From the UHGV virus genome UHGV-0084588: DNA of 64,000 bases. One strand, written 5' to 3'. Source of the stretch: a virus. Shown piece after piece: positions 16,712-35,447 of this stretch. Position numbers and translations under genes: made by a program. The notes under the pieces are model-generated. The model ran no database searches and was not told the origin of the DNA. It saw only the letters and a program-made list of their open reading frames with translations. How positions within the stretch are numbered: the first letter of the stretch is position 1; each line of letters starts with the position of its first letter.

Positions 16712-17355
16712 TGTTGATACCCGAGCCGAGACTTCCAGATAAGATGGTAAGAATCGCGGCAATAGACCCCGGTACGAGCCATCTTGGTATGGCAGTATTG
16801 GATTGGGAATACGGCAGCGATCAAGCCGAAGTGGTTTGGGCTGATACCATGCATGTATTAGACCCAACGCATCCAAATGCGTTCGCAGAGTGTGTCGGTA
16901 AACGTGACGATCGTTTAGTTAAGCTCGAAGCTTGTTACCGTGAATTTCTTCGGATTGCCTGCCCAACTTTCGTTGCAACTGAGACACCGTTCATGCGGAG
17001 AGCAAAACTCTCCGCTTATGAATCTGGCGTCGAACTACAATTAATGTTGCGACGTACTTTGTGGGATATTTACCCGGAGAAAATTTTACACGGCTTCAAT
17101 CCTATCATTGTAAAATCATTCGTTGGGGTGGAGGCGAAGGGGACGGATAAAACCGATATGTTTCGGGCCGTGACCAAACTCTACCGTGAACATGCTTTGT
17201 TTGATATTACAACGTTAGATGAGCACAGCATTGATGCTGTGGCGGTGGGAAATATTTTCGTCAGGGTAAATCTGTTAAACTTAAACAGCTTGCTACCGCC
17301 TAAACAAAAGTCGACCAAGACCTCCAGGCGGAGAAGGCGTCGGAGAAAACGTTAA
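16711..17355 (+). CDS. RuvC-like Holliday junction resolvase with poly-Arg C-terminal tail
   Basis: N-terminal IAAIDPGTSHLGMAV resembles the RuvC catalytic Asp motif; later ETPF and HSIDAVAVG acidic motifs fit the RuvC fold; C-terminus KSTKTSRRRRRRRKR. Confidence 0.65.
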   Translation: MLIPEPRLPDKMVRIAAIDPGTSHLGMAVLDWEYGSDQAEVVWADTMHVLDPTHPNAFAECVGKRDDRLVKLEACYREFLRIACPTFVATETPFMRRAKLSAYESGVELQLMLRRTLWDIYPEKILHGFNPIIVKSFVGVEAKGTDKTDMFRAVTKLYREHALFDITTLDEHSIDAVAVGNIFVRVNLLNLNSLLPPKQKSTKTSRRRRRRRKR

Positions 17356-17933: not shown

Positions 17934-17937
17934 TATT

Positions 17938-17977: not shown

Positions 17978-18023
17978 ACAATTTTTAAACATAGTGTGAG
18001 ACTTAAAAGAAGGAGTGTTAATT

Positions 18024-18677
18024 GTGGAACCGTTACGCTTAATGACCAGAACGTTGCTGATACCTATTCAAGAGCTGAAGGTTGGGCCGTTGGTCGCCTC
18101 TAATGGGGAAATTGTTGATTTCGTTAAAGAAGAAAAAATTGTTACGACCGCTTTCCAAGAGACGGTTCATCGCTATTATCATGCAGTACCCTTATCGGGC
18201 AGTTTAGATTGCCCTGGTGTGGAGGGGAGTACATCTGCGTTAATAGTGGAGCACTTAGAAAAGAAAGGGTTTGGAGTTGGGAAGGGGCAGGTTTTTGTAG
18301 ACATCTCTAAACTGAACGAGTATCAGAAAGACCTAACGTTTCAGATAAGAAGATTACTTACCCGCTACGGTCTTTTCTCGATTAATTGTAAGTTCGACGA
18401 CGTTCGGATGTTAGACCACGGTTTTACTACCGCCCTTAAAATCTATCGCGGTAAAAGATACATTCAGTTTGCTTGGTGGGTGCCGACCCTGCGAGGTGAG
18501 AGAAAAACGGTGGAAGGGTTGTACGGTTGGGCTTTATGGAGCGAAGTTCCAGTAACGAAACTCGATGCAATTATTCCACAACATCGAAACGTTCCACTTA
18601 GCAGTTTATTTACTTCTGGTGGGAACACCACGTGGGATGAATTTGTTAAAAATGTTTTATCGATAGGGGAACAATAA
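18024..18677 (+). CDS. hypothetical protein
   Basis: ORF in track from 18015; GTG at 18024 has better spacing to SD aaggag (18009-18014). Confidence 0.5.
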   Translation: MEPLRLMTRTLLIPIQELKVGPLVASNGEIVDFVKEEKIVTTAFQETVHRYYHAVPLSGSLDCPGVEGSTSALIVEHLEKKGFGVGKGQVFVDISKLNEYQKDLTFQIRRLLTRYGLFSINCKFDDVRMLDHGFTTALKIYRGKRYIQFAWWVPTLRGERKTVEGLYGWALWSEVPVTKLDAIIPQHRNVPLSSLFTSGGNTTWDEFVKNVLSIGEQ

Positions 18678-19153
18678 TGCAACAGCTAGATATCACCGAA
18701 GACAAAATCTCCGCTAAATTTCCTGAATTACGTGAATATGTGAAAGATTTAAATTCGATTCGAGAAACGCCGGTTAGAATCACTTTGGCCGTTGAAGACG
18801 ATATTACACATGGGGTTGCAATCTGGGAACCGGGGAACCTTATTTATCTGGTGGTGGCCGAGGGTTCTCGTCGCAGCGGTGTAGGTTCCTTTTTACTGAA
18901 ATACGTTCAACTCAATTCAGATCGTCAAATGGTGATGTGTCGTGTTCATCCTTCAAACATCGACGGGCTGTGTTTCTTTTCCAAAAAAGGCTTCCAAATA
19001 GACCGATGGTTTATTGCCAGTGACTCCCGTCGGTATTTTCGTATGACGAACAGTAACGTTGATTCGTCATACGCCCCGCCGGAAGAAGGATATTTGGTGG
19101 ATTTTATTGAAAACACCCCCATCTTTCTCTCTGTTGCGGATAAGATTTATTAG
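18677..19153 (+). CDS. GNAT-family N-acetyltransferase (158 aa)
   Basis: Acetyl-CoA binding-like motif RRSGVGSFLLKYV with the expected preceding beta-strand pattern. Confidence 0.5.
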   Translation: MQQLDITEDKISAKFPELREYVKDLNSIRETPVRITLAVEDDITHGVAIWEPGNLIYLVVAEGSRRSGVGSFLLKYVQLNSDRQMVMCRVHPSNIDGLCFFSKKGFQIDRWFIASDSRRYFRMTNSNVDSSYAPPEEGYLVDFIENTPIFLSVADKIY

Positions 19154-19172
19154 AAACAGTTGAGAGCCCAAA

Positions 19173-19649
19173 ATGATTCGTGTCGAATATGAGACGCGGT
19201 GCTTGGAAGGCAATAAAGCAAAAGTGTTACGTTGCGTTGAAGTTATCCCCGCACACGAGGTTGATTTATGTACAGGTCGTGTTCGGGGTGTTCCTGTAAC
19301 GATAATACAGCATAATCCTTGTTCGCAATTTAAAGAGAAGGCAACTCCAGCAGTACGTTCTCGTCGACGAGAGGACTTTTCTGATCTCCGCAAATCTTTT
19401 ACACGGCACTACCGACGCAGTAAATGGAAAGTGCTGGTATTAATTTTAGTGGATGATTTTATTAAAGACCTGGTTTGGGAGGAGGTGCTAAAAGAGCGCG
19501 GTTTTACACCCAAACCTTTCTCGTATCACTGGGAACGTTTCAAAAAGAAATATCGTGAAGCGTTATGGTTTTCGCCTAACACACGGAACATGATTCCGCG
19601 TTTAGAGTCGATGCCATGGCTACGCGATCATCTTGATGAGGTAGACTGA
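19173..19649 (+). CDS. hypothetical basic protein (158 aa)
   Basis: ORF, same strand, Arg/Lys-rich. Confidence 0.5.
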   Translation: MIRVEYETRCLEGNKAKVLRCVEVIPAHEVDLCTGRVRGVPVTIIQHNPCSQFKEKATPAVRSRRREDFSDLRKSFTRHYRRSKWKVLVLILVDDFIKDLVWEEVLKERGFTPKPFSYHWERFKKKYREALWFSPNTRNMIPRLESMPWLRDHLDEVD

Positions 19650-20041
19650 TGAAACGAACTGTCATTACCCTATTTCTAACGTTACTTTCATTTTCCGCGT
19701 TAGCGGAATTTAAACCGCACGATATTAGTCGTTTTGAACCTACGGTGCCAGGCGATAAACCTGTTGTATTTAAACCCACAGACGATCCAGTCGTTGCAGT
19801 TCAAAACGACGAGTTTGCCACGGTAAATTATGGCAAAACCGAACTGTGCCCAGCGGGTGGCTTCTATTTGGTAAATATCAAGCGTCGTACATATCAGTTT
19901 GTTGATCCTGGAAGCTGTTCTGCCAGTGTAAAGGTAACGTTAGAAACTGTACCCTATGCAAATAAAAGTATTAATATTCAACGTTTAACTTTTTATGTTG
20001 GTGATGAGATCACCGCACGCTACCCGTTATACGGGTATTAG
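19649..20041 (+). CDS. secreted protein (signal peptide)
   Basis: N-terminus MKRTVITLFLTLLSFSALA is a typical Sec signal peptide. Confidence 0.55.
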   Translation: MKRTVITLFLTLLSFSALAEFKPHDISRFEPTVPGDKPVVFKPTDDPVVAVQNDEFATVNYGKTELCPAGGFYLVNIKRRTYQFVDPGSCSASVKVTLETVPYANKSINIQRLTFYVGDEITARYPLYGY

Positions 20042-20064
20042 CGATTAACCCCCGCGGAGTTTGT

Positions 20065-20703
20065 ATGTCTTTTGTAATTGATTTTGAAGTTGGCCATAGA
20101 CAGAACTTACTCAACCTCGTCAGTTACTGTAATAGCGGCAGTGTACGTAAAAAGCTTTCGGCTGAGAAAGTGGATGTTTCTTTAATAGGCGCACCCACAC
20201 CGGAAGGTCGGTATCGGGTAAAGTTAACTAACCGCAACGATATTAACGACGCGGTGATGGTATCTTACACGAAGCTTCAATTGAACGACTTTCTTGATAT
20301 TCCCGGTAAGTATCTGGATTGGTTCGATTTCGAAAACGGCCAACCGAAAAATTACGATAAATGGGCAGAGTCCGCGAAAGCGTCAGTAGAGAAGACGTGT
20401 CAGGATCGTGGTATGGTTTTGTCACGTGCATGGGATACTGGCTCGCAGTGCCATGTTGAGTATGATGAAGATCTCGAGCGCTATGCGGTAATTTACGAAT
20501 GTGATTCGTTTATTTATAGCGCACGAAATCGATTTATTCTACCGCTTCATATTGGGCAAATTATTACGAATAAAACCCTTGACGGACTTAACTACAACAA
20601 CGAACTGAATAAACGTCCTTTAGGGAGTGTAGATGGTGAGTTGGATGTCTGGATGGGCAAAGCGTTACTCGAAACTGTTGTTTTAAGTGGTTTAGAAGAG
20701 TGA
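20065..20703 (+). CDS. hypothetical protein (212 aa)
   Basis: ORF followed by a strong terminator. Confidence 0.55.
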   Translation: MSFVIDFEVGHRQNLLNLVSYCNSGSVRKKLSAEKVDVSLIGAPTPEGRYRVKLTNRNDINDAVMVSYTKLQLNDFLDIPGKYLDWFDFENGQPKNYDKWAESAKASVEKTCQDRGMVLSRAWDTGSQCHVEYDEDLERYAVIYECDSFIYSARNRFILPLHIGQIITNKTLDGLNYNNELNKRPLGSVDGELDVWMGKALLETVVLSGLEE

Positions 20704-20716
20704 TGACGTTGGCGAT

Positions 20717-20762
20717 AGGAGAGAACCTTTTCGGGGTTCTCTCCTGCTTTCTTTTTTTTTCG
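20717..20762 (+). terminator. rho-independent terminator
   Basis: AGGAGAGAACC-loop-GGTTCTCTCCT followed by gctttcttttttttt. Confidence 0.65.
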
Positions 20763-20790
20763 CTTCACAACTTCAGTATGGAGGTGACAA

Positions 20791-21339
20791 ATGTATAAAA
20801 TTGCTATTATTGGTTCTCGAGAAACGCCCGAAGACACGATGCAAGAAATGTTGGACGTGTTGCAACGTGGATTCAAAATTCTTCGTAATAAACAGCACAA
20901 TATCGAAACCCGATCGGGGGGTTGTTATAAAGGACCAGACCAATTACAGTTTATGTTAGCACGCACTGAACCAGGTCCACACATTTGCTATTTACCTGAC
21001 GATCGTAAGTTGTGGTTACGTAAGTTACATCCGAACGTGGATTTTCGCGTTATCCCTCAAGACATTCGTTATCGTGGGATTGTGGCATCGCTTCACCCTA
21101 ATCCTGATAAGCTATCGGACATAGCTTGGGCACTGCATGGACGAAACTTAAATATTGTGTCAGGTGATTCTTTGGACGACCATGTAGACGCCGTTTATTA
21201 TTACGCCGAACACGATAAAAAGGGAAATCCAAAGGGTGGGACAGCGATGGGTGTCCGTTATGCGCAGTCGCTGAACATCCCTTGCTACTATCATGTTACC
21301 GACGCATCTAAGTGGTTAGAAGACCTACGCTTATTATGA
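20791..21339 (+). CDS. SLOG-superfamily Rossmann-like protein (DprA/DUF2493-like)
   Basis: IAIIGSRETP followed by a SGG..G.D-like motif and a C-terminal GGTA.G motif resemble the DprA/SLOG nucleotide-binding fold; weak by-eye call. Confidence 0.35.
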   Translation: MYKIAIIGSRETPEDTMQEMLDVLQRGFKILRNKQHNIETRSGGCYKGPDQLQFMLARTEPGPHICYLPDDRKLWLRKLHPNVDFRVIPQDIRYRGIVASLHPNPDKLSDIAWALHGRNLNIVSGDSLDDHVDAVYYYAEHDKKGNPKGGTAMGVRYAQSLNIPCYYHVTDASKWLEDLRLL

Positions 21340-21389
21340 AGTTAGTCAGGGCGGGCTTCTCCCCGCTTTAGCTTAAAATGGGGTAAAGG

Positions 21390-22523
21390 ATGTCAACATT
21401 AGATTCCGATTTAGAAGTCCTTTGCGATGACTACGATCGATTGGTCGCGTTAGAATCGCTTAATGTTAAAGACAATTATCCGACGGTTGTCGCTATCCGA
21501 AAACGGTGGGCTTTAGATGATGTCCACGTTGCGCTGGAGTCTGCAGCGATGATGGAACGCGCGCAATTTGTTGCGGACACCGAGCCTTACGCAGGGGTAG
21601 GTAAAGCGGTCGCACGCGCGACAGGCAGAGCGGTTAAAGGAGTTGGACGCGTTGCTGGAAAAGCAGCGGTGGCAGGAGCCAAAGCGTCTGGAAAAGTCGC
21701 AGGTAAACATTCTAAGCAGCTGGCGTTACGTTTTATCGACTTCGCGGAAGCCGCCGGTAAAGAAGTTATTAATGAACTGAAAGAAGCGACGTCCAAAGCA
21801 TCGTCGTTAGAGCGCAAGCTACAGAAGTTAGAAGCACGTTTAAGTTTACTCGGTATCAAGGACACTTTAAAACCGGTTGACTGTGACACGGGAAGTTGGA
21901 CAACCAAAGTTTGTTTAGAAGACAAACCTAACGTAAAAGCATGTATTGAGTTCAGTAAGAACCTGAGCGCAATGGATGCGATGGTCAACGAGTATACCGT
22001 TAAAACACGTACGTTAATCGGTAAGAGCAAGAAAGTTACCGAAAGCGGTTTGGAGAAAGTGGGTCGGTCAACGAACTGGGCGATTAAACGAAGCGCAGGG
22101 CTGTTCGGTATTATCGATCCGTTTAAAACGGTGAAAGCATATCCGTGGCCAGGTAACGTGGTGGTCGTTGAACACGACAGCGGTAAGATTGAGTGGGCGA
22201 TTGCCCGTGACGGTGATTTTGGTCACACGATCAAATCTCTGAACTTGCACGAAATCGGTTCAGCTCTTGATGCTGTTAGAAACATTATCCGGGCGTTACG
22301 TCAGCGTGGTACGAAACGACGTAGCGTTGGGTATACAGGAATTTATGATGAAATTCAACGTATGCGTAAGGAACTTAAGTCGCTTGAAGGGCGGGAGTTA
22401 CGCGACGCTACCGTACGTTATAAAAACGCACTGCGTTTAGAAGATGCGTTTACTACCTCGTTAGTGCGCGTTGCGGAAGGATTACTGGAATGGTGCAGGT
22501 TGTCGCTGATTGAGGTTAAATAA
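21390..22523 (+). CDS. hypothetical protein with Ala/Gly/Lys-rich repeat region (377 aa)
   Basis: ORF with internal low-complexity segment (GVGKAVARATGRAVKGVGRVAGKAAVAGAKASGKVAGK). Confidence 0.55.
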   Translation: MSTLDSDLEVLCDDYDRLVALESLNVKDNYPTVVAIRKRWALDDVHVALESAAMMERAQFVADTEPYAGVGKAVARATGRAVKGVGRVAGKAAVAGAKASGKVAGKHSKQLALRFIDFAEAAGKEVINELKEATSKASSLERKLQKLEARLSLLGIKDTLKPVDCDTGSWTTKVCLEDKPNVKACIEFSKNLSAMDAMVNEYTVKTRTLIGKSKKVTESGLEKVGRSTNWAIKRSAGLFGIIDPFKTVKAYPWPGNVVVVEHDSGKIEWAIARDGDFGHTIKSLNLHEIGSALDAVRNIIRALRQRGTKRRSVGYTGIYDEIQRMRKELKSLEGRELRDATVRYKNALRLEDAFTTSLVRVAEGLLEWCRLSLIEVK

Positions 22524-22990
22524 TGCGTATCACTATTATTCTCAAACCCGACAGTAAATACGGAAAGTTATATGGCGACCAGGTACTCAAACTGCACAAC
22601 ATGTTGTTCGCAGAAGAGAAGGTTCGTATTAGTCAGTTAACCGGTCGCGACACGTTCAACCCAATTGAGCACCTAGAAGAGATTTGGCCTCAAGATTATC
22701 TCTGTGCGTGTGCGGTGGACGACAACGAACAACTTTTGGGTTTCATGACGTTTTCAATGGGTTCTTGCTCAAAGGACACATTTGTTTATATTGGGAACTA
22801 CTACGTGATTCCCGAAGCGCGTTCTCAAGGAGTAGGACGTGCGCTTATGGACAAAGTCCGTGAATACGGAAAGTCCAAAGGTTGTGGTTGGATGAGTTTG
22901 GATGTGTTAGACAACAACGTTAAAGCTATCTCCTTGTATGAGAAAATGGGATTCCGTACCGAATGCAGGGAAATGATAAAGGAAATCTAA
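22523..22990 (+). CDS. GNAT-family N-acetyltransferase (155 aa)
   Basis: Motif ARSQGVGRALMDKV..G matches the GNAT acetyl-CoA binding loop; start overlaps the upstream stop (TAATG). Confidence 0.65.
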   Translation: MRITIILKPDSKYGKLYGDQVLKLHNMLFAEEKVRISQLTGRDTFNPIEHLEEIWPQDYLCACAVDDNEQLLGFMTFSMGSCSKDTFVYIGNYYVIPEARSQGVGRALMDKVREYGKSKGCGWMSLDVLDNNVKAISLYEKMGFRTECREMIKEI

Positions 22991-22991
22991 A

Positions 22992-23624
22992 ATGGCTGCA
23001 AGATTCGTACCGTTTCACGACGGGTCTAGATATACTTTTGGTGTAGAGCGTTACGCTGTGGGTTTTCGTCCTGGTTGGCGAGTGGTACGAATCGATAAGG
23101 CGTGTTGGTGTTTACCGACGGGCATTTTTGATTACTTTACACCTGAAGCTTTAACGCGGTTTGTTTCTCTGGGTTCGCCCACCCAACGTGCTGCGTGGGA
23201 AAAGAATATTCGTTGTCGTTATTTAGGTAAAACACGAAACGCCACAGCACGGGCTGTTTATCACGTTGGGAGTCGTTGGTTGCATGTCGAACCGACACAC
23301 CCACGATGTGCAGTGACGCCCTTTAATGGGGAGTATAAAGGTCAGGTATACACAGGGTTGCATTTTGCTTTTCCAGACAACCCCGAACTGAATTACTTTT
23401 TAGCCACCCCGAAGGACGTTACGTTAGCTACGTTCTATAAATACCTTTTGTTCTATCCTGCGTATGTCGTTGCAGAATTTGAACACAAAGCATTTCCTCT
23501 GCCATACGGTAGAGACAGGAGATTAGCAGGATGTTCTATCGAGAACTTCAGCAATACACCGACGCTCTCCGAAAAGCGACCATCGATGCAGACAACAACC
23601 TCAGAGATGTCGTTAGCGCTATAG
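22992..23624 (+). CDS. hypothetical protein (210 aa)
   Basis: ORF 2 nt after the previous stop. Confidence 0.5.
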   Translation: MAARFVPFHDGSRYTFGVERYAVGFRPGWRVVRIDKACWCLPTGIFDYFTPEALTRFVSLGSPTQRAAWEKNIRCRYLGKTRNATARAVYHVGSRWLHVEPTHPRCAVTPFNGEYKGQVYTGLHFAFPDNPELNYFLATPKDVTLATFYKYLLFYPAYVVAEFEHKAFPLPYGRDRRLAGCSIENFSNTPTLSEKRPSMQTTTSEMSLAL

Positions 23625-23902
23625 AACAGTGTTCGGATGTATTGTATGCGGAAACGATTGAATCGCCAACTCACGATGGTGTGAAATCGCTCCAGCTACA
23701 CGTTTGTAGTAAGCACGGTAGTCTGTCGTTAAACTTCCGTGTAGGTTTAGATTATTACATGGTTCGTAAGAGCTATTTAAGTTGTGACGGCGACCTCTAT
23801 CCGGTTGTCTGGAACAACGATTATTCTAAGTTTGTTTATCCGCTTGAAGAACACCGACGCACGGTTTACGAATTTGTGAAAGCTGTTCTTGAGGGGTTCT
23901 AA
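23531..23902 (+). CDS. hypothetical protein (123 aa)
   Basis: ORF with SD aggaga before the ATG; overlaps the upstream gene by 94 nt in another frame. Confidence 0.4.
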   Translation: MFYRELQQYTDALRKATIDADNNLRDVVSAIEQCSDVLYAETIESPTHDGVKSLQLHVCSKHGSLSLNFRVGLDYYMVRKSYLSCDGDLYPVVWNNDYSKFVYPLEEHRRTVYEFVKAVLEGF

Positions 23903-23916
23903 GAGAGGGCCTTGTA

Positions 23917-24522
23917 ATGTCAGAGATGATTCTCGATTCATTACTATTGATTACAGTATCGTACATCAACAAAACGGGCAAGTTGCCTAAACGTGGCGTT
24001 ACTATCGAACGTGACGGGTTTAAACACCGCTACCCCTTAACGAAAATTTTGGATTTAGCTGCACGTTTAGCCAAGATGCGTCGACCAAATAGCGAAGCGG
24101 CACCGAAATACGTTTTGCTGGTTTTACAACGTGCGATTTCTGAGGTGCGTCGTAAACGCCGCCGCGCCGCGTTTCGATTTTATCCAAACTCGACGCAACA
24201 AGTGGTGGGGGAATATAACGATATGGTTGTTGATCTTCGTGCAGGTCGGAGTAATGTAACCGGGCTGGCGTATAACCGCCTTAAACGCATTCTGGACGAC
24301 AGTGATGCTTTAACCACACCACAGGAGGGGCAAGCGGCTCTAACGCTTCTACGTGGCGCTGAGCTCGTTATTGTAGACACCGCCGTGCAGGCAGCAAGAA
24401 TGCAACATTATCTTGCTAAACAAGGGCTAGTCTTGCTCTGCGTAACATCCGCACAGGCTGCTAACCTTACCACGCCGGAAACGTCGGAAGTGTGGAGTGA
24501 TCCGATTGTTGATCATCAATAA
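23917..24522 (+). CDS. hypothetical protein (201 aa)
   Basis: ORF followed by a terminator at 24530-24565. Confidence 0.5.
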   Translation: MSEMILDSLLLITVSYINKTGKLPKRGVTIERDGFKHRYPLTKILDLAARLAKMRRPNSEAAPKYVLLVLQRAISEVRRKRRRAAFRFYPNSTQQVVGEYNDMVVDLRAGRSNVTGLAYNRLKRILDDSDALTTPQEGQAALTLLRGAELVIVDTAVQAARMQHYLAKQGLVLLCVTSAQAANLTTPETSEVWSDPIVDHQ

Positions 24523-24529
24523 AACCTTA

Positions 24530-24565
24530 CCCCTACTTAACGGTAGGGGCGGGTTTCTTTTTTAT
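24530..24565 (+). terminator. rho-independent terminator
   Basis: CCCCTAC-ttaacg-GTAGGGG followed by cgggtttcttttttatt. Confidence 0.6.
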
Positions 24566-24614
24566 TGTAAATTATTACAACTGTTACTCTCATTGTGAGA
24601 GGTTTCACTTAACG
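24566..24614 (+). promoter_or_regulatory. promoter-like AT-rich motif plus palindrome (variant copy)
   Basis: aaATTATTACaactgttaCTCTCAttgTGAGAGgtttCACTTAACg upstream of the kinase-like gene at 24637. Confidence 0.35.
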
Positions 24615-24636
24615 TGCGTAAAAAGGTAAAACTATA

Positions 24637-25260
24637 ATGCTTAAGACAGTATCTATTGATGGTCCTGATTTTTCTGGGAAATCAACGTTGTGTAAAATGG
24701 TAAAAGCGATGTTGGAGTCCGCAGGATTAAAAGTGTGTATTCGGAACCATCCGACGTCTGAAACCGAGGCGGGCATTCGTGCACGTAGCTTGGTTGTACA
24801 GTCTGCTTCGAAAACAAAAATTGCTGAAGCAATGTGTGATGATTTCCTTCACACGTTGGACCATGTTGTTGACGAGTACGATGTCGTTATTTTCGATCGC
24901 TTCTGTCCTTCAACGATCGTTTATCAGGGGACAGATGGTAAGGATGTGGTTTTCCAACGTAAACTAACTCGTCATTTCCACACTCCTGACCTTTATGTTT
25001 GGACAGATGTTGATTACCCAACAGCGTTAGCGCGATTTAAGAAACGCGTAGAAGAACAAGGTAAGAATTGGGATGATGAGGTACTTACTGTTAAGTATCT
25101 AAAGGACAACCAATGTTGGGATGGCTTACGCGACCATTATCGTTTCGCACATCACATCTTAACAGAAGGCGGTTGTCTTCACACGTTATTACCGGTAACG
25201 CAGAATGACGATTACCGTTTGAAAGCTGCAGAGATTGTTACGCATATTTTAGCAAACTAA
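24637..25260 (+). CDS. P-loop nucleotide kinase, thymidylate/dNMP kinase-like
   Basis: N-terminal P-loop IDGPDFSGKST and a DRF..ST.VYQG motif reminiscent of the thymidylate kinase DR(Y/F) motif. Confidence 0.5.
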   Translation: MLKTVSIDGPDFSGKSTLCKMVKAMLESAGLKVCIRNHPTSETEAGIRARSLVVQSASKTKIAEAMCDDFLHTLDHVVDEYDVVIFDRFCPSTIVYQGTDGKDVVFQRKLTRHFHTPDLYVWTDVDYPTALARFKKRVEEQGKNWDDEVLTVKYLKDNQCWDGLRDHYRFAHHILTEGGCLHTLLPVTQNDDYRLKAAEIVTHILAN

Positions 25261-25268
25261 CCGCTTAG

Positions 25269-25304
25269 GTACCACCCAACGGTGGTGCCTATATTTTATT
25301 TTTT
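25269..25304 (+). terminator. rho-independent terminator, immediately upstream of a promoter-like element
   Basis: GGTACCACC-caac-GGTGGTGCC followed by tatattttatttttt. Confidence 0.55.
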
Positions 25305-25350
25305 CTCAGATATATATTACTTAAGTGAGAGTTACAATTAACTCTTTACA
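25305..25350 (+). promoter_or_regulatory. conserved promoter-like element with downstream inverted repeat
   Basis: CTCAGATATATATTACttaaGTGAGAGTT...AACTCT, 45-75 nt upstream of the HTH gene. Confidence 0.45.
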
Positions 25351-25379
25351 CTGAGTTGTTAACCTAAAGGAGTATTACC

Positions 25380-25739
25380 ATGGCTTACAATCACAATTCC
25401 ATCGTTCTGACAAAACGTAAATTCGGTCTTCACTTGTCTTACGTAATTCGTCATTTGACCACGAAAGATATTACTCAGCGTGAGCTTGCCCAGCTTGCGA
25501 AAGTTTCACAACCCGTTATCTCATCTATTAAGAACGATCACTCAGAACGTTTAAGCTTACCGATTATGATGAAAGTTGCTGATGCGATTCGTTTGAAGTA
25601 TCAGATTAGTTTTAATTCCGTTAAGGGTCGTTGCTCAGTAACTGTCCACGTAGAGTCCGCATTGGACTACGTTGCAAACACCTCCATTAAACGCACCACG
25701 AAGAATGTGCGTTTTATCACTAACACCGCAGCACACTAA
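25380..25739 (+). CDS. XRE-family helix-turn-helix DNA-binding protein
   Basis: ITQRELAQLAKVSQPVISSIKN matches the Cro/C1-type HTH pattern; a promoter-like element lies directly upstream. Confidence 0.5.
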   Translation: MAYNHNSIVLTKRKFGLHLSYVIRHLTTKDITQRELAQLAKVSQPVISSIKNDHSERLSLPIMMKVADAIRLKYQISFNSVKGRCSVTVHVESALDYVANTSIKRTTKNVRFITNTAAH

Positions 25740-25760
25740 TCAACCTGAAGGAGTATTATC

Positions 25761-26432
25761 ATGCCACCGAAAATTGGTAAAACCGTAATTGAAGAAACTG
25801 TAAAGAACGAGACTAAAGCCAACGAAGTTCAACATGCTGCGAAGGTTGAACTTTTACCCTGCGTTAATGAAATACTCGGGGTGAAATTCTTAACTTTTAG
25901 CCCGTATACTGACCTGGTTTTCGATTTTTATCAAGACCAGCCTTTCAACCTATTCACACTTGTCTGCACTTATAATGGCGATGTTCTGGCAGTTGCTCCT
26001 GGTCTTAATAGAGACAAGTTACTTACAGGTACGGTTATTACTGAAATTCTTCTGCGGTTAATGCATAAGTTTGAAGGACCTGAACTTGACAAAATTGCTG
26101 TTAAGTTAGCTGACTTACTAATCAATGCTGTCACCTGGTTGAGTTTTAACCCTTCTATCTATTTCCATTTCAATACAAATATTCTTCACGCCGTAACAGA
26201 CGATGGTAAAAAGTATCGCATCTTAATTAAGGGTGGGGTGCAACAACCTTTGTTCTCTAGACAAAACTGCCATATTAAGTTTTCGCCTGACTTGGTAGAA
26301 GTTTACGGCCAGCGAGTAGCGGCTGGCCACTACGATACCCATCTCAGATTTTTCAATTACCTGTATGAAAAATTAGGGAAAGCTGGCTTGACACCCAATC
26401 TTGCTTTCACAAGTTCTGCCCCTTTTGCGTGA
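25761..26432 (+). CDS. hypothetical protein (223 aa)
   Basis: ORF with SD gaaggag; terminator downstream. Confidence 0.55.
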   Translation: MPPKIGKTVIEETVKNETKANEVQHAAKVELLPCVNEILGVKFLTFSPYTDLVFDFYQDQPFNLFTLVCTYNGDVLAVAPGLNRDKLLTGTVITEILLRLMHKFEGPELDKIAVKLADLLINAVTWLSFNPSIYFHFNTNILHAVTDDGKKYRILIKGGVQQPLFSRQNCHIKFSPDLVEVYGQRVAAGHYDTHLRFFNYLYEKLGKAGLTPNLAFTSSAPFA

Positions 26433-26444
26433 TGTTTAATAATT

Positions 26445-26478
26445 GGGGAACTTCGGTTCCCCTTTCTTTTTTGTTTTT
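26445..26478 (+). terminator. rho-independent terminator
   Basis: GGGGAAC-ttcg-GTTCCCC followed by tttcttttttgttttt. Confidence 0.65.
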
Positions 26479-26526
26479 ACAGCTTTAGCGTATTGTTTTG
26501 AGACGACCTTTTAAGGAGTAATTAAC

Positions 26527-27525
26527 ATGGCTTTTAGGAAGACTATAGAACGTACCGCCACGGATTTAACAGTAGGTCGGTTGGCACGTAGAGATATTCG
26601 CAACCCTCAACTTCAGGCTTGTTTATCGGGTCCTAACGGTGCGGTGATTCGTGAGGCGTTGTGCAATAGTGAACTGAATACGTTCTCTTTACAAAAAGGA
26701 AAAACAATTCAAGGGTTTATCATCACAAAACACATTTACGGCGACCCAACGTTACACTGCTTGTATATGCATGAGATTGTACCGGGTTGTTTGAACAAAC
26801 TGAACCTACTACTGGTACTCGACTATACCGGTTTTACGTACCTTAACCGAATTGCCAGTGGTGTAGAAGAAATCGCTGAGCTTAATGACCTGGGATTTAG
26901 ACACGCCCACTCTACGTACCGTTTAGGCACACGTAAGTTACTGGATGTCGCACTACCAACGAACGTGAAGAACATCTCTGGCGATTTTTATAAAGAGTTA
27001 ACTGCCACACAACGCGAACAGCTTATGTTGCTTTTGGGTACGAGCGTCGTTGAAAACATCAACGCTGACCCTGTGGGCCGCACACGACAAATCATGCCAC
27101 AAGTCGAAACGTTGGTGGAATTAGTACGTCACGTCAACCACCACACCTACGTTTGGATGGACGGCAACGATGTTGTGGGCGTGGTGCAAGTTAAATTGCG
27201 TAATCTTAACGAGTGTGAATTAAAAGCCATTGCGGTGAGTGAAACACACCGGGGGCGTGGTATCGGACGGACTTTGTTATACCGTGCTCTGCAGATTGCA
27301 TCGACAACAGCGGCACCATTGGAGATAGGGTGTTTCAATAACAACCCTGCATTTAGACACCTGGTCGTCGAATTATTTAAATTTCGGCCCTACGATTACG
27401 AATTTGTTTTAGTGCGCGACGATGACGTCGTCAGTTGGGAGCGTCGGAAAAATCGTGTCGAGTTGGTGTTAGGCGACGAAGTGTCATCGTTACAAGGCGG
27501 ATATAATGCGGAAACCAATTATTAA
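26527..27525 (+). CDS. protein with C-terminal GNAT acetyltransferase domain (332 aa)
   Basis: C-terminal AIAVSETHRGRGIGRTLLYRALQIA matches the GNAT acetyl-CoA binding motif; N-terminal half unassigned. Confidence 0.55.
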   Translation: MAFRKTIERTATDLTVGRLARRDIRNPQLQACLSGPNGAVIREALCNSELNTFSLQKGKTIQGFIITKHIYGDPTLHCLYMHEIVPGCLNKLNLLLVLDYTGFTYLNRIASGVEEIAELNDLGFRHAHSTYRLGTRKLLDVALPTNVKNISGDFYKELTATQREQLMLLLGTSVVENINADPVGRTRQIMPQVETLVELVRHVNHHTYVWMDGNDVVGVVQVKLRNLNECELKAIAVSETHRGRGIGRTLLYRALQIASTTAAPLEIGCFNNNPAFRHLVVELFKFRPYDYEFVLVRDDDVVSWERRKNRVELVLGDEVSSLQGGYNAETNY

Positions 27526-28321
27526 GTGGATGGGTGGGAAAACACGTGTTTTAGGGGAATTACAAAAGGTCTTACCTAAACGTACAACCTTTGTAGAACC
27601 GTTTGTGGGTGCAGGGTCTGTTTTCCTAAATACGAACTACAGCCGGTATATTTTATCGGATTCTAACCCTGATTTGATACGCTTACTTTGCGTTGCGCGT
27701 GAACAGCCTGAAGAACTGATCGCTGCGTCGCAGCCGTTGTTCTTAGACGGTAATACCACTGTAAAGTATATGGAGCGTCGTGAGCTGTTTAATAGCGGTA
27801 AAACAATGTCAGAAGTTGAACGGGCAGCGATGTTTTTATACTTAATGCGTCACGGTTATAACGGGATGTGTCGTTATAACGGTAGCGGTGGGTTCAATGT
27901 TCCGTTTGGACGTTACCCGAATGGGGTTTATTATCCGTTAGAAGAAATTCGGGATTGGGCTAAACGTTGCGCAGAAGTCGACTATCTGGAGATTGTTTGT
28001 GAGGACTTTCGTTCCGTATTAGCACGGACGCCTGAGGATGCTGTGATTTATGCTGATCCTCCGTATATTCCGTTATCGGATACCGCGAAACATGCGCAAT
28101 ACCACCGTAAAGAATTCTCACAAACGGATCATCGAGAATTAGCCAAGTTACTACAGCAGCAGGTGGAACGTGGCAACAGTGTCGTGTTGTCAAATGCAGA
28201 CACCCTGCTCACCCGAGAAATTTATTACGGTTTTGAGTGGCGCAGTATTGAGGTCGGTCGCTATATGGGTGCGTCTGGCGCTGCTCGGAAAACGGTGACT
28301 GAATTACTGGGAGTGCTCTAA
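27506..28321 (+). CDS. dam: DNA adenine methyltransferase (Dam-type, GATC N6-adenine MTase)
   Basis: Near collinear with E. coli Dam as I recall it: KWMGGK, VEPFVGAGSVFLNT..SRYIL, FLYLMRHGYNGMCRYN, catalytic DPPY, TREIY. Confidence 0.95.
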   Translation: MRKPIIKWMGGKTRVLGELQKVLPKRTTFVEPFVGAGSVFLNTNYSRYILSDSNPDLIRLLCVAREQPEELIAASQPLFLDGNTTVKYMERRELFNSGKTMSEVERAAMFLYLMRHGYNGMCRYNGSGGFNVPFGRYPNGVYYPLEEIRDWAKRCAEVDYLEIVCEDFRSVLARTPEDAVIYADPPYIPLSDTAKHAQYHRKEFSQTDHRELAKLLQQQVERGNSVVLSNADTLLTREIYYGFEWRSIEVGRYMGASGAARKTVTELLGVL

Positions 28322-29094
28322 TGCGCATAGTGGATATTCACGATTATCGTAATGACCATTTAGCAATTGGTGTCGACGGGAAAATGGTTTCACTAACCCG
28401 TGTACGGAAAGGGTTACTGGAAAAGGACGTCATTCGCGAGTCTGAAGATCCGACCTTTATCATTCTTTCGAACACGAATCAGCTACAAGGAATCTTCTCC
28501 GGTCGTGTCGATGGTAAGTTTTTCTACATGTCGGCAATCGTTGTGTTTGCGAAGAAGAAAATTAATTTCGCACAACTCAAACGTTTGTTAAAAGTGGAGA
28601 TGTTTGATGTCACATACCCTGCCAACGACCTAAAACGTCGTGACCAGTTAATGGTGTATTTGGGTATGCAGCCGACGTCTATCGACTATGACCTGACGTT
28701 TACTGAAGAACCTGAAGTTCGCACCGATTTACCTGATGTAGATGATATTGAATCTCTAACGTTAGAAGAAACGTTTACGATCCCTAAGGTGGTTAATGTC
28801 AGTTTAGATACATACTGTCTGGGATTGTTAGCTATTGGGGCTGCTGAAGGGCTGTGCTGTCGTAAAGACGGTAAAGTTGAAGGTATCTTAGTCTATTCGA
28901 AAATCAACGAAAAGACGTTTGCAACCGAAGGTTTCTTTTATAACGACTGTACTTACGGGATTGCGCTCTTGACCACATACTACCGTATTGCGTATTTAAA
29001 GGGTGCAACCGTGCGTCTTACTTTTCCATACTCAGCACCTCCAGCAATGTCTGGTGTTGAGGTAGAAGCATTAACTGGCCATTTTATCTTTTAA
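28321..29094 (+). CDS. hypothetical protein (257 aa)
   Basis: ORF start overlaps the Dam stop (TAATG). Confidence 0.55.
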   Translation: MRIVDIHDYRNDHLAIGVDGKMVSLTRVRKGLLEKDVIRESEDPTFIILSNTNQLQGIFSGRVDGKFFYMSAIVVFAKKKINFAQLKRLLKVEMFDVTYPANDLKRRDQLMVYLGMQPTSIDYDLTFTEEPEVRTDLPDVDDIESLTLEETFTIPKVVNVSLDTYCLGLLAIGAAEGLCCRKDGKVEGILVYSKINEKTFATEGFFYNDCTYGIALLTTYYRIAYLKGATVRLTFPYSAPPAMSGVEVEALTGHFIF

Positions 29095-29103
29095 GGACAT
29101 TGA

Positions 29104-29331
29104 ATGGAAATCAAGCGTATTGTAACCAAAGACAAAAAGATTACTTATGTCGCAGGTGATAACGAATTCTCGGCGGTTATTAATGACGAGAACGTGCTGA
29201 TTATCGGTTATCCGGGTAAAGTTATTACCCGCAGTCATCAGCGCGTGATTGACAAGCTTATCGCCAAAGCAAAAGCGCGCGACGGTGTTGGTTCAGTACA
29301 AACCCATACCGGGTTAACGTTGGCTCTCTAG
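29104..29331 (+). CDS. hypothetical small protein (75 aa)
   Basis: Short ORF in operon context. Confidence 0.4.
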   Translation: MEIKRIVTKDKKITYVAGDNEFSAVINDENVLIIGYPGKVITRSHQRVIDKLIAKAKARDGVGSVQTHTGLTLAL

Positions 29332-29369
29332 CCAGCAGGTAATATGACCTCTTAACTGGAGACTTAGAG

Positions 29370-29876: not shown

Positions 29877-29881
29877 ACCTT

Positions 29882-29918
29882 CCCTCTCTCCGTTTGGAGA
29901 GAGGGAGTATTTATTTTT
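29882..29918 (+). terminator. rho-independent terminator (hairpin copy 1)
   Basis: CCCTCTCTCC-gttt-GGAGAGAGGG followed by agtatttattttt; same hairpin as 30929-30952. Confidence 0.65.
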
Positions 29919-34792: not shown

Positions 34793-34986
34793 AAATTTGG
34801 TTACCGATTCTAGTTTTTATCCTTATCGCAGGAGCACTAGCAAGTGCTGAGTACGATAATCGTGTTCTAGAAACAAAGCGCGAACTGTATCAGGACTGTA
34901 TAAAGGATTACACACCGGGTACAGAGCTTCATGCACAGGCTGTAAAAAGTTGTGCACTGATGGCCGAATCGCAGACTCGTTCCTAA
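34789..34986 (+). CDS. small membrane or secreted protein (65 aa), paralog of 34580-34792
   Basis: N-terminal hydrophobic segment WLPILVFILIAGALASA; shares the LY..C...T......A....C pattern with the upstream ORF. Confidence 0.4.
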   Translation: MKIWLPILVFILIAGALASAEYDNRVLETKRELYQDCIKDYTPGTELHAQAVKSCALMAESQTRS

Positions 34987-35386: not shown

Positions 35387-35431
35387 CCTACCGCCCGATT
35401 CTATGGGCGGTAGGTGTTTTTATTTTTTTTT
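35387..35431 (+). terminator. rho-independent terminator before the fibre module
   Basis: CCTACCGCCC-gattctat-GGGCGGTAGG followed by tgtttttattttttttt. Confidence 0.65.
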
Positions 35432-35447
35432 GATCTGGGAGGTTTTA

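What the first reader, a model, noticed from the sequence alone, without database searches (positions are those of the whole stretch)
18677..28321. Three GNAT acetyltransferases clustered with Dam methylase and a dNMP-kinase-like gene in the early-type region
Three separate GNAT-motif proteins (18677-19153, 22523-22990 and the C-terminal domain of 26527-27525) lie within 9 kb alongside Dam, a SLOG-like protein, RuvC and a nucleotide kinase. Multiple GNATs in a phage early region suggests acetylation of host proteins or small molecules for takeover or anti-defence; the 332-aa protein has an extra N-terminal domain that may confer target specificity.
Basis: partly seen in the sequence, partly recalled or inferred. 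Interest (0 to 1): 0.5.

Follow-up and report, generated by a model that had tools for sequence, protein, structure and literature searches.

The report
Three conserved jumbo-phage GNAT acetyltransferases
The three acetyltransferase-type genes are real, but they are unrelated, separately transcribed and already annotated genes of the Salmonella phage SPN3US group of giant phages; the most notable point is that the SPN3US counterpart of one of them is packed inside the virus head and so probably enters the cell with the DNA.

Summary

The window comes from a ~220 kb E. coli-associated jumbo phage. Its 16.7-29 kb block is gene-for-gene syntenic with Salmonella phage SPN3US gp84-gp107. The three GNATs are orthologs of SPN3US gp88, gp95 and gp104, which were annotated as acetyltransferases in the GenBank record JN641803.

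- **GNAT1:** misses Pfam's cutoff, but is 60% identical to gp88, whose crystal structure is PDB 7DQG.
- **GNAT2:** follows an internal-head-protein gene with an ATGA overlap. In SPN3US, gp95 is a head protein by mass spectrometry and showed no spermidine acetyltransferase activity.
- **GNAT3:** a tandem GNAT, with a degenerate N-terminal GNAT domain and a C-terminal domain that keeps the acetyl-CoA motif (MshD/VipF-like architecture). It is missing from some relatives.

The three are not paralogs, lie in three terminator-bounded units and are under strong purifying selection (dN/dS 0.02-0.08). "Early-type region" is not supported: in SPN3US the block mixes head, tail and non-virion genes. I found no sign of a joint GNAT-Dam-kinase system. 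Substrates remain unknown. My best inference is that GNAT2 is a capsid-delivered enzyme.

The parts
18677..19153 (+). GNAT1: minimal single-domain GNAT (158 aa), ortholog of SPN3US gp88 (PDB 7DQG). Motif A is SRRSGVG. Phe101 aligns with GNAT2's Tyr139, the position where many GNATs carry a catalytic Tyr. It has an invariant C-terminal tail.
   Evidence: dN/dS 0.035
18015..18677 (+). 220-aa protein of unknown function (phrog_8034). Its stop overlaps the GNAT1 start (ATGA), as in SPN3US gp87/gp88.
21390..22523 (+). Internal head protein (phiKZ_IP family), ortholog of SPN3US head protein gp94. It keeps A-x-E protease-type motifs (ALE-22). Its stop overlaps the GNAT2 start.
   Evidence: PF12699, 33 bits; phrog_2497, 1e-73
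22523..22990 (+). GNAT2: single-domain GNAT (155 aa), ortholog of SPN3US gp95, which is a capsid (head) protein. Invariant residues: R100-x-x-G103-V104-G105, N131, N132, Y139.
   Evidence: dN/dS 0.021; SPN3US proteome
23531..23902 (+). 123-aa protein, positional counterpart of SPN3US gp97 (a head protein), in the same unit as the internal head protein and GNAT2.
26527..27525 (+). GNAT3: 332-aa tandem GNAT, ortholog of SPN3US gp104 (31% identity). It overlaps the Dam start by 20 nt.
   Evidence: dN/dS 0.078
26566..26925 (+). GNAT3 N-terminal domain (residues ~14-133). The model has GNAT topology (b1-a1-a2-b2-b3-b4-a3-b5-a4-b6) but no R/Q-x-x-G-x-G/A motif, so it is a probable non-catalytic pseudo-GNAT.
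   Evidence: model pLDDT only 64.7
27103..27465 (+). GNAT3 C-terminal GNAT domain, which keeps motif A (HRGRGIG).
27506..28321 (+). Dam-type (D12 class) N6-adenine DNA methyltransferase with a DPPY motif.
24637..25260 (+). Thymidylate kinase, alone in its own terminator-bounded unit.
20791..21339 (+). DprA-like (SLOG superfamily) protein, first gene of the unit that holds the internal head protein and GNAT2.
25380..25739 (+). XRE-type HTH protein, preceded by the conserved 25-nt AT-rich motif at 25307-25331.
20716..20746 (+). Intrinsic-terminator-like hairpin plus T-run, separating the GNAT1 unit from the GNAT2 unit.
24530..24549 (+). Terminator-like hairpin ending the DprA-like / internal head protein / GNAT2 unit.
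26445..26462 (+). Terminator-like hairpin just upstream of the GNAT3-Dam unit, followed by T-rich ...TGTTTTTAC.
29880..29907 (+). Terminator-like hairpin ending the GNAT3-Dam unit.

Best explanation
The 9.6 kb stretch is not a dedicated acetylation or takeover module. It is part of a conserved, mixed (virion plus non-virion) gene block of SPN3US-like giant phages. This copy comes from a ~220 kb E. coli-associated relative.

The block carries three evolutionarily unrelated GNAT-fold acyl-CoA N-acyltransferases, each in its own transcription unit and probably each with its own substrate.

(1) GNAT1 is the gp88-type minimal GNAT with a solved structure. It is a non-virion enzyme of unknown substrate.

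(2) GNAT2 is the gp95-type enzyme. It is encoded immediately after an internal head protein, with an ATGA stop/start overlap. I infer that it is incorporated into the capsid, ejected with the DNA, and uses host acetyl-CoA to acetylate a host (or co-injected) target before any phage gene is expressed. That would make it an acetyl-CoA counterpart of T4's packaged ADP-ribosyltransferase Alt.

(3) GNAT3 is an accessory, non-virion tandem GNAT. A degenerate N-terminal GNAT domain probably helps form the acceptor-binding site for the C-terminal domain, which retains the acetyl-CoA motif, as in MshD-type enzymes.

Shown here: the GNAT folds and motifs, orthology and synteny, purifying selection, and separate terminator-bounded units.
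Shown by others, for SPN3US: gp95 is in the head, and gp95 gives no spermidine acetylation.
Inferred: packaging in this phage, ejection, catalytic action on host targets, and the role of the N-terminal domain.
For: - Synteny with SPN3US gp84-gp107 and with Parshik and phiEaH2.
- Orthology at 60%, 48% and 31% identity.
- GNAT evidence for each protein.
- Motif A is invariant in all three families. GNAT2 also keeps N131, N132 and Y139.
- dN/dS against an 82%-identical relative is 0.035, 0.021 and 0.078; GNAT2 is the lowest and GNAT1 third lowest of the 13 genes that gave a value (Tmk is 0.031).
- No pairwise similarity among the three.
- Strong terminator-like hairpins at 20716, 24530, 25266, 26445 and 29880 split the region into units.
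- SPN3US gp95 averages 41 PSM in wild-type virions and 32 PSM in tailless heads. It is classed 'Head', with an intact N-terminus and no cleavage. gp94 gives 48 and 34 PSM. gp104 and gp100 are at trace level and classed 'Non-virion' (PMC10052503 supplement).
- The internal-head-protein to GNAT2 adjacency holds in the four relatives examined: SPN3US, phiEaH2, Parshik and NZ_CP173450.
- The GNAT3 N-domain is found only in ~320-330 aa orthologs among 1.8 billion representative proteins.
Against: - No data exist for this phage itself. Packaging of GNAT2 is extrapolated from an ortholog that is 48% identical.
- Ejection and catalysis have never been shown for gp95. The proteome paper's head-protein table (Table S6) lists no function for it.
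- The closest solved sequence relatives of GNAT2 are small-molecule amine acetyltransferases (SSAT2, nourseothricin acetyltransferase, Dpa, AAC(6')), not protein acetyltransferases. A small-molecule substrate is therefore quite possible.
- GNAT1 has Phe at the position aligned with GNAT2's Tyr139, where many GNATs carry a catalytic Tyr.
- Transcription timing is unknown.
Confidence: 0.6

Rival explanations
1. One reading: the three GNATs, together with Dam, the kinase and the SLOG-like protein, form an early-expressed host-takeover or anti-defence cluster that acts in concert.
For: - The genes are physically close.
- The units that hold GNAT1, Tmk, HTH and GNAT3-Dam each start after a terminator followed by an AT-rich ...TTAC motif. 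This resembles the ~10-nt AT-rich early-promoter elements described for RNAP-encoding jumbo phages (PMC7598289).
- Jumbo-phage GNATs have been proposed to modify host proteins as Rac does (PMC7824862).
Against: - The three GNATs are unrelated to each other and lie in separate terminator-bounded units.
- In SPN3US the block is interleaved with tail (gp84, gp91) and head (gp94, gp95, gp97) proteins.
- GNAT3 is absent from Erskinevirus (phiEaH2-type) and CR5-type relatives that keep GNAT1; phiEaH2 also keeps GNAT2 and Dam.
- None of the three is detectably related to Rac beyond the superfamily level (hhalign probability 3.4%, 0.2% and 0.1%).
Confidence: 0.1
2. GNAT2 is a polyamine or other small-amine acetyltransferase (SSAT/Dpa/streptothricin-type) that changes the host polyamine pool or detoxifies a small molecule. 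It is not a protein-modifying effector.
For: - The best solved sequence relatives are thialysine/diamine acetyltransferase SSAT2 (E 8e-10), nourseothricin acetyltransferase (7e-9), Dpa polyamine acetyltransferase (1e-6) and AAC(6')-Iy (1e-6).
- NCBIfam hits include AAC(6'), STAT and PaiA models, all far below their cutoffs.
- Other phages do encode active spermidine acetyltransferases (PMC9992855).
Against: - The SPN3US ortholog YP_009153389, expressed in E. coli delta-speG, gave no N-acetylspermidine (PMC9992855).
- No NCBIfam equivalog cutoff is approached.
- Packaging in the head is harder to explain for a bulk metabolic enzyme.
- Putrescine, cadaverine and other amines are not reported in the section I read, so this rival is weakened rather than excluded.
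Confidence: 0.2
3. GNAT3 works with the overlapping Dam gene as a DNA-modification pair, adding a Mom-like acyl modification to adenine.
For: - GNAT3 and Dam overlap by 20 nt here and by 8 nt in NZ_CP173450.
- They are adjacent in SPN3US and Parshik.
- Mom-type DNA-modifying enzymes belong to the GNAT superfamily and occur in some jumbo phages (PMC7824862).
Against: - No Mom-type family appears among the Pfam, PHROG or NCBIfam hits of GNAT3.
- phiEaH2 keeps Dam at the same position without GNAT3.
- Stop/start overlaps are common throughout this block, so the overlap carries little weight.
- The best structural matches are small-molecule and protein tandem GNATs.
Confidence: 0.05
4. One or more of the GNATs is a catalytically dead structural or binding protein, as in chimallin, whose C-terminal domain has a GNAT fold without active-site residues. 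The presence of GNAT2 in heads would then be structural or incidental.
For: - Chimallin is a precedent for a non-enzymatic GNAT fold in this phage family (PMC9365700).
- GNAT1 has Phe at the position aligned with GNAT2's Tyr139.
- The GNAT3 N-domain lacks motif A.
- Trace amounts of clearly non-virion proteins are also detected in SPN3US preparations.
Against: - The pyrophosphate-binding motif R/Q-x-x-G-x-G/A is invariant in GNAT1 and GNAT2, and its final I-G is invariant in the GNAT3 C-domain.
- GNAT2 also keeps N131, N132 and Y139.
- gp95 PSM counts are about ten times those of the proteins classed as non-virion contaminants, and they persist in tailless heads after two CsCl gradients.
Confidence: 0.1

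Closest known systems
Salmonella phage SPN3US gp88 / gp95 / gp104 (Seoulvirus) and their orthologs in Erwinia, Cronobacter and Proteus jumbo phages
   Same: Same gene order from the RuvC-like gene to Dam and beyond. Orthologs have the same lengths (158/160, 155/154 and 332/332 aa) and the same stop/start overlaps. GNAT1 occurs in 62 phage records, full-length GNAT2 in 59 and GNAT3 in 48.
   Different: Only 60%, 48% and 31% amino-acid identity, with no megablast match over the region in the phage collection. The window phage is a distinct lineage. It is known only from ~220 kb metagenome and isolate-assembly contigs, plus an 82%-identical relative deposited as a circular 'plasmid' of E. coli.
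PDB 7DQG, 'Crystal structure of Salmonella phage acetyltransferase' (SPN3US gp88)
   Same: 59-60% identity over the full length of GNAT1. It is the top Foldseek hit of the model.
   Different: No associated paper was found in the library, so neither substrate nor activity is known. The label is 'putative acetyltransferase'.
Tandem-GNAT enzymes: mycothiol synthase MshD (1OZP), Legionella VipF (6WQB), M. abscessus MAB_4324 (7Q3A)
   Different: About 10-12% identity. The MshD equivalog model scores 18.6 bits against a cutoff of 163. The N-domain family is restricted to this phage clade, and the model is only of moderate confidence.
T4 Alt (capsid-packaged, injected ADP-ribosyltransferase)
   Same: The concept only: a small host-modifying enzyme carried in the head and delivered with the DNA. 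SPN3US gp95 is a head protein.
   Different: Different fold and chemistry (ART rather than GNAT). gp95 is not processed by the prohead protease; from my own knowledge, Alt is. Ejection and targets of gp95 are unknown.
[quoted passage not shown]
   Same: A small, stand-alone, phage-encoded GNAT. It is the model invoked in the literature for jumbo-phage GNATs.
   Different: No specific sequence relationship to any of the three families (hhalign probability 3.4%, 0.2% and 0.1%). Rac serves phages that depend on the host RNA polymerase, whereas the phiKZ-like jumbo phages to which this one is related encode their own RNA polymerases (literature).
Spermidine/spermine N-acetyltransferases (SpeG, SSAT, PaiA) and Dpa
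   Same: They are the best sequence matches of GNAT2 among solved structures.
   Different: The PaiA model scores 25.8 bits against a cutoff of 250. The SPN3US ortholog was inactive on spermidine in vivo.

Membership tests
GNAT superfamily - GNAT1 (18677-19153) | Match to a curated GNAT profile above its gathering score | tested here: not met
   The best match is Acetyltransf_7 at 22.9 bits against 27. NCBIfam matches are far below their cutoffs, and PGAP names the ortholog 'hypothetical'. Several orthologs (P0015, P0018, P0019) do carry precomputed PF13508/PF00583 hits.
GNAT superfamily - GNAT1 (18677-19153) | GNAT fold (b1-a1-a2-b2-b3-b4-a3-b5-a4-b6-b7) | tested here: met
   60% identical to the protein of crystal structure 7DQG. 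The AF2 model has the element order E-H-E-E-E-H-E-H-E-E. Foldseek gives 7DQG plus 55 further matches at E<=1e-3, and all rows shown are GNAT-type acyltransferases. hhalign against the GNAT2 family gives probability 88%.
GNAT superfamily - GNAT1 (18677-19153) | Acetyl-CoA pyrophosphate-binding motif A, Q/R-x-x-G-x-G/A | tested here: met
   R65-R66-x-G68-V69-(G/A) is invariant in 11 orthologs.
GNAT superfamily - GNAT2 (22523-22990) | Profile match above cutoff, motif A, and the conserved Tyr at the usual general-acid position | tested here: met
   Acetyltransf_1 at 70.6 bits against 20.7. R100-x-x-G103-V104-G105, N131, N132 and Y139 are invariant in 5 orthologs.
GNAT superfamily - GNAT3 C-terminal domain | Profile match above cutoff and motif A | tested here: met
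   Acetyltransf_1 at 47.5 bits against 20.7 over residues 199-278. The motif is H-R-G-R-G-I-G, with I246-G247 invariant; Parshik has R in place of the middle G.
GNAT superfamily - GNAT3 N-terminal domain | GNAT fold and motif A | tested here: inconclusive
Any GNAT (all three) | Acyl-CoA-dependent N-acyl transfer activity | not testable with these tools
   This needs enzyme assays. The only published test I found is negative for spermidine with SPN3US gp95.
Spermidine/spermine N-acetyltransferase (SpeG/PaiA/SSAT) | Equivalog-level profile match and spermidine acetylation | tested here: not met
   SpmdActasePaiA scores 25.8 bits against a cutoff of 250. The SPN3US ortholog gave no N-acetylspermidine in E. 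coli delta-speG (PMC9992855).
RimI (ribosomal protein S18 N-acetyltransferase) | Equivalog-level profile match | tested here: not met
   TIGR01575 scores 51.4 bits (GNAT2), 26.9 (GNAT3) and 18.6 (GNAT1) against a cutoff of 86.4.
Mycothiol synthase MshD / tandem-GNAT enzymes | Two GNAT domains in one chain; MshD equivalog profile | tested here: inconclusive
Rac (phiKMV-like phage GNAT) | Specific sequence homology to LUZ19 gp28 | tested here: not met
   hhalign probability is 3.4% (GNAT2), 0.2% (GNAT1) and 0.1% (GNAT3).
Mom-type DNA acyltransferase | Match to a Mom family profile; modified adenine in phage DNA | tested here: not met
   No Mom-named family is among the Pfam (E<=1), PHROG or NCBIfam hits of any of the three. 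I did not verify that each library holds a Mom model. The DNA chemistry is not testable here.
Capsid-packaged, injected enzyme (T4 Alt-like) | Present in purified heads; ejected with DNA; active before phage gene expression | not testable with these tools
   The first feature is shown for the SPN3US ortholog gp95 by mass spectrometry. Nothing is known for this phage, and ejection and early activity have not been tested anywhere that I could find.

The most novel reading that the evidence does not exclude
GNAT2 (gp95-type) is a capsid-loaded effector. It would be brought into the prohead together with the internal head protein encoded just upstream, present at a few copies per head, ejected with the genome, and able to use host acetyl-CoA to acetylate a host target within seconds of infection, before any phage gene is expressed. 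The target could be a host protein, a defence component, or a small amine near the entry site or early infection vesicle. This would be the first characterised stand-alone injected acetyltransferase of a nucleus-forming jumbo phage. The head location of a GNAT is present in published SPN3US tables but is not discussed in the papers I could read: the word 'acetyl' does not occur in the SPN3US papers I searched, and no function is listed for gp95.
Probability: 0.35. Interest if true: 0.6.

Novelty: new member of a known kind. Interest (0 to 1): 0.3.

Why it matters
As found, this is mostly a re-annotation. The three GNATs are the counterparts of genes already labelled in the SPN3US genome record, and the idea that jumbo-phage GNATs modify host proteins is already in the literature.

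What is worth keeping is narrower:
- One of the three is a strongly conserved enzyme that is physically packaged in the capsid of the model phage, next to an internal (ejection) head protein. That makes [quoted passage not shown] testable in an existing genetic system, the SPN3US amber mutants.
- The 332-aa protein is probably a tandem GNAT whose N-terminal half is found only in this phage clade.
- The same gene block occurs in an E. coli-associated ~220 kb phage that is common in metagenomes and is deposited as a "plasmid". This widens the host range in which these questions can be asked.

Tried and rejected
- **A fourth GNAT downstream of Dam.** I tested whether the 257-aa protein at 28321-29094 (SPN3US gp106/gp107 family) is a degenerate GNAT. 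hhalign against the GNAT3 family gave probability 8.7%, and there were no Pfam or NCBIfam hits. Rejected.
- **Other GNATs in the window.** Pfam scans of the other large ORFs I submitted found none, and family HMMs against all six-frame ORFs found none.
- **Distribution of the GNAT3 N-domain.** Against 1.8 billion representative proteins it returned only six clusters, essentially all orthologs, so it gives no functional lead.
- **Deeper alignments for structure prediction.** The search for homologous proteins returned only 4-6 GNAT3 relatives even with a profile query, so the GNAT3 model rests on 5 sequences.
- **A paper for PDB 7DQG.** None is in the library.
- **Text on gp88, gp95 or gp104 in the SPN3US papers.** There is none. 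Only the supplementary tables were informative.
- **A transcriptome for SPN3US-like phages.** None found, so temporal class is unresolved.
- **Sigma-70 promoters.** Not enriched: 20 found against 20.6 expected.
- **Rac, RimI, SpeG/PaiA, MshD and Mom membership.** All rejected at the sequence level.
- **AcrVA5 (GNAT anti-CRISPR).** Not directly compared. No chain with that name is among the 45 PDB hits of GNAT2 at E<=0.01, which is a weak test.

Full report
**What is in the sequence.**

The stretch 16.7-30 kb is a tightly packed run of plus-strand ORFs.
- 22523-22990 (155 aa, "GNAT2") matches Pfam Acetyltransf_1 at 70.6 bits against a cutoff of 20.7.
- Residues 199-278 of 26527-27525 (332 aa, "GNAT3") match at 47.5 bits.
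- 27506-28321 is a D12-class N6-adenine methyltransferase (193.6 bits, with a DPPY motif).
- 24637-25260 is a thymidylate kinase (69.4 bits).
- PHROGs adds a DprA-like (SLOG) protein at 20791-21339 and a RuvC-like resolvase at 16711-17355. It also identifies 21390-22523 as an internal head protein (phrog_2497, E 1e-73; Pfam phiKZ_IP, 33 bits).

The third candidate, 18677-19153 (158 aa, "GNAT1"), fails all Pfam GNAT cutoffs; its best score is 22.9 bits against 27.

**GNAT1 is a GNAT.**
- It matches phrog_7861 "acetyltransferase" at E 1.7e-70.
- It is 60% identical to SPN3US gp88.
- gp88 is the protein of PDB entry 7DQG, "Crystal structure of Salmonella phage acetyltransferase". I found no paper for that entry.
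- A profile of 11 orthologs hits 14 PDB sequences, all of them GNATs.
- An AF2 model (pLDDT 69.8) retrieves 7DQG and then 55 more matches at E<=1e-3; all rows shown are GNAT-type acyltransferases.
- hhalign of the GNAT1 family against the GNAT2 family gives 88% probability (E 2.8e-6), with the acetyl-CoA motifs aligned.
- The motif R65-R66-x-G68-V69-(G/A) is invariant.
- Phe101 aligns with GNAT2's Tyr139, the position where many GNATs carry a catalytic Tyr. The family also has an invariant C-terminal tail (RYFRMTN...PPEE...PIFLS) of unknown meaning.

**Where the window comes from.**

There is no nucleotide-level match over the region in 50,697 phage records. At protein level, however, the whole block is collinear with Salmonella phage SPN3US gp84-gp107, with Erwinia phage Parshik and, apart from GNAT3, with Erwinia phage phiEaH2.

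The three GNATs are orthologs of SPN3US gp88, gp95 and gp104, at 60%, 48% and 31% identity. All three carry putative acetyltransferase annotations in the GenBank record JN641803.
- GNAT1 is present in 62 phage records.
- Full-length GNAT2 is present in 59.
- GNAT3 is present in 48.

The exact GNAT2 protein occurs on 220-224 kb contigs in many metagenomes and in NCBI isolate assemblies. An 82%-identical relative is deposited as a 221,873-bp circular "plasmid" of a urinary E. coli isolate, NZ_CP173450. There PGAP labels GNAT2 and GNAT3 as GNATs and GNAT1 as hypothetical. The rest of the window carries the major head protein, a DnaB-like helicase, large virion proteins, a 1,500-aa tail fibre with a T-even-type gp38 adhesin, an endolysin and radical-SAM genes. 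No further GNAT was found.

**The three are independent genes, not a module.**
- They show no pairwise BLAST similarity.
- None reaches any NCBIfam equivalog cutoff.
- Strong hairpin-plus-T-run terminators at 17937, 20716, 24530, 25266, 26445 and 29880 cut the region into five units:
  - 18015-20703: GNAT1 plus a gp91-like protein, whose SPN3US counterpart is a tail protein.
  - 20791-24522: the DprA-like protein, the internal head protein, GNAT2, and the gp96, gp97 and gp98 counterparts.
  - 24637-25260: Tmk alone.
  - 25380-26432: the HTH protein plus a hypervariable ORF.
  - 26527-29876: GNAT3, Dam and three more ORFs.
- Sigma-70-type promoters are not enriched. That fits a phage that, like its phiKZ-type relatives, uses its own RNA polymerases (PMC7598289).
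- GNAT3 is accessory. All 48 records that carry it are listed, and they exclude phiEaH2, Asesino, Stratton and CR5, which do have GNAT1. In phiEaH2 the HTH-to-Dam interval simply lacks it.
- All three are under strong purifying selection against the 82%-identical relative: dN/dS is 0.035, 0.021 and 0.078. GNAT2 is the lowest and GNAT1 the third lowest of the 13 genes that gave a value (Tmk is 0.031).

**"Early-type region" is not supported.**

SPN3US virion proteomics (PMC10052503, supplementary tables) gives these assignments:

| SPN3US protein | Window counterpart | Assignment |
|---|---|---|
| gp84, gp91 | gp91: 20065-20703; gp84: by synteny probably 15824-16711 | Tail |
| gp94 | internal head protein (21390-22523) | Head |
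| gp95 | GNAT2 | Head |
| gp97 | 23531-23902 | Head |
| gp100 (Tmk), gp104 | Tmk, GNAT3 | Trace level, "Non-virion" |
| gp88 | GNAT1 | Not listed |

gp95 averages 41 PSM in wild-type virions and 32 PSM in tailless heads after two CsCl gradients, similar to gp94 (48 and 34). Its N-terminus is intact, it is not cut by the prohead protease, and no function is listed for it.

As a crude estimate of my own, I normalised PSM per kDa in the 37-slice experiment to the 12-copy portal (portal 480 PSM at 72.3 kDa; gp95 54 PSM at 17.6 kDa; gp94 78 PSM at 41.6 kDa). This suggests a handful of copies per head, very roughly 3-6.

Gene arrangement agrees with a link between the two. The stop codon of the internal-head-protein gene overlaps the GNAT2 start (ATGA) here, in SPN3US and in NZ_CP173450, and the two genes are adjacent in phiEaH2 and Parshik. 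Such overlaps are common throughout this block, so the overlap alone proves little. The window's internal head protein keeps A-x-E motifs (ALE-22) of the kind proposed as cleavage sites in gp94. I found no transcriptome for this phage group.

Several units do begin with a terminator followed by an AT-rich ...TTAC element. This resembles the AT-rich early-promoter elements described for RNAP-encoding jumbo phages. No such element precedes the internal-head-protein gene. Timing therefore remains open.

**GNAT2: what it may do.**

Its invariant residues (R100-x-x-G103-V104-G105, N131, N132, Y139) argue for a working enzyme. The nearest solved sequences are small-amine acetyltransferases: SSAT2/thialysine, nourseothricin, Dpa and AAC(6'). 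The best NCBIfam model is RimI, well below its cutoff. The SPN3US ortholog YP_009153389 was tested as a candidate spermidine N-acetyltransferase in E. coli delta-speG and produced no N-acetylspermidine (PMC9992855).

Putting head location and intact catalytic motifs together, the most likely mechanism is an enzyme that is packaged, ejected with the DNA, and uses host acetyl-CoA on a host or co-injected target at the very start of infection. This is conceptually like T4 Alt. Packaging in this phage, ejection and the target are all inferred. A non-spermidine small-molecule substrate remains a serious alternative.

**GNAT3: the extra domain.**

An AF2 model built from 5 sequences (pLDDT 64.7) gives residues 14-133 the canonical GNAT order of elements (b1-a1-a2-b2-b3-b4-a3-b5-a4-b6). 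This is followed by a linker and the Pfam-detected GNAT domain.

- VipF 6WQB: 181 aligned residues.
- MAB_4324 7Q3A: 185 aligned residues.
- Single-domain GNATs align only about 100-140 residues.

The N-domain has its own invariant residues (G72-D73-x-T75-L76, L98-D99, G102, Y105, G123-F124) but no R/Q-x-x-G-x-G/A motif. It occurs only in ~320-330 aa orthologs among 1.8 billion representative proteins. The moderate model confidence is the main caveat.

GNAT3 overlaps Dam by 20 nt and is adjacent to Dam wherever it is present. However, Dam persists without it in phiEaH2, and nothing links GNAT3 to Mom-type enzymes.

**Comparison with known systems.**

The literature already notes many GNATs in jumbo phages and proposes Rac-like modification of host proteins (PMC7824862; PMC13282480). 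I compared LUZ19 Rac (gp28) directly with the three families and found no specific relationship: hhalign probability is 3.4%, 0.2% and 0.1%. Chimallin shows that a GNAT fold can be non-enzymatic in this phage family (PMC9365700), but the conserved CoA motifs argue against that here.

**Verdict.**

The feature is a new member of a known, already annotated gene set. The one lead worth following is that a highly conserved GNAT is a capsid component in the model phage and that its function is entirely unknown. Interest is 0.3.

Noticed in passing
window 25307-25331, 43355-43379, 47263-47287 (+): A 25-nt motif, CAGATATATATTACYTARGKGAGAG, occurs three times against 0 expected by chance. Each copy sits after a T-rich stretch and is followed by an inverted repeat (a possible 5' hairpin). 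The same motif lies upstream of the SPN3US HTH gene gp101 (L001, ~10393), and a variant lies upstream of the HTH gene in NZ_CP173450 (L010, 9218-9245). It is a candidate virion-RNAP early promoter or regulatory site.
   Followed up: partly
window 17972, 24571, 26470, 29913, 31989, 54406 (+): Intergenic terminator hairpins are followed within ~10-25 nt by a T-rich element ending in TTAC (for example TTTTTATTTTTAC). This may be a second, weaker promoter class at the start of several units, including the GNAT1 and GNAT3-Dam units.
   Followed up: partly
window 25761-26432 (+): This 223-aa ORF, between the HTH gene and GNAT3, is only 39% identical to its positional counterpart in NZ_CP173450, while the flanking genes are 88-98% identical (dN/dS 0.28). 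It has no PHROG or Pfam hit. It looks like a hypervariable or replaceable slot.
   Followed up: no
L010 (NZ_CP173450.1); L005 and L009 (NCBI isolate assemblies); L006-L008 (ENA metagenomes): Close relatives of this ~220 kb phage appear as a circular 'plasmid' of a urinary E. coli isolate and as contigs in bacterial isolate assemblies and many metagenomes. No close relative is in the isolated-phage collection. This could reflect a carrier state or pseudolysogeny, or contamination of cultures.
   Followed up: partly
L005 977-1861; L003 15051-16040; L008 5127-5741: Gene content varies among relatives. A second phiKZ_IP-type internal head protein lies upstream of the gp94-type gene in L005 and in phiEaH2, and L008 has an extra 204-aa gene before Tmk.
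   Followed up: no
window 36153-40655, 40655-41437, 41498-42010 (+): A 1,500-aa tail fibre with T-even long-tail-fibre distal-subunit matches is followed by a T2/T-even-type gp38 adhesin (PF05268, 237 bits) and a second ORF that has only the Gp38_N domain. This is an apparently T-even-like receptor-binding module in an SPN3US-type jumbo phage.
   Followed up: no
window 35403-36008, 42163-42678, 50506-51354, 51368-51844, 54511-55041, 55107-55637 (+): There are six paralogous ORFs with Pfam DUF7941.
   Followed up: no
window 56877-58211 and 58201-59118 (-): Two adjacent radical-SAM genes lie on the minus strand (phrog_1802; PF04055).
   Followed up: no
window 19010-19150 (GNAT1 residues ~112-158): GNAT1 orthologs share an almost invariant C-terminal tail (W-x-I-x-x-D...RYFRMTN...S-x-x-P-x-EE...PIFLS-x-A). 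At least its last ~30 residues are modelled with low confidence and their role is unknown.
   Followed up: no
window 34950-35360 (+): This is a DUF488-N3a ('active DUF488-N3 subclade') protein. The corresponding SPN3US gene is annotated as a DUF488 family protein.
   Followed up: no
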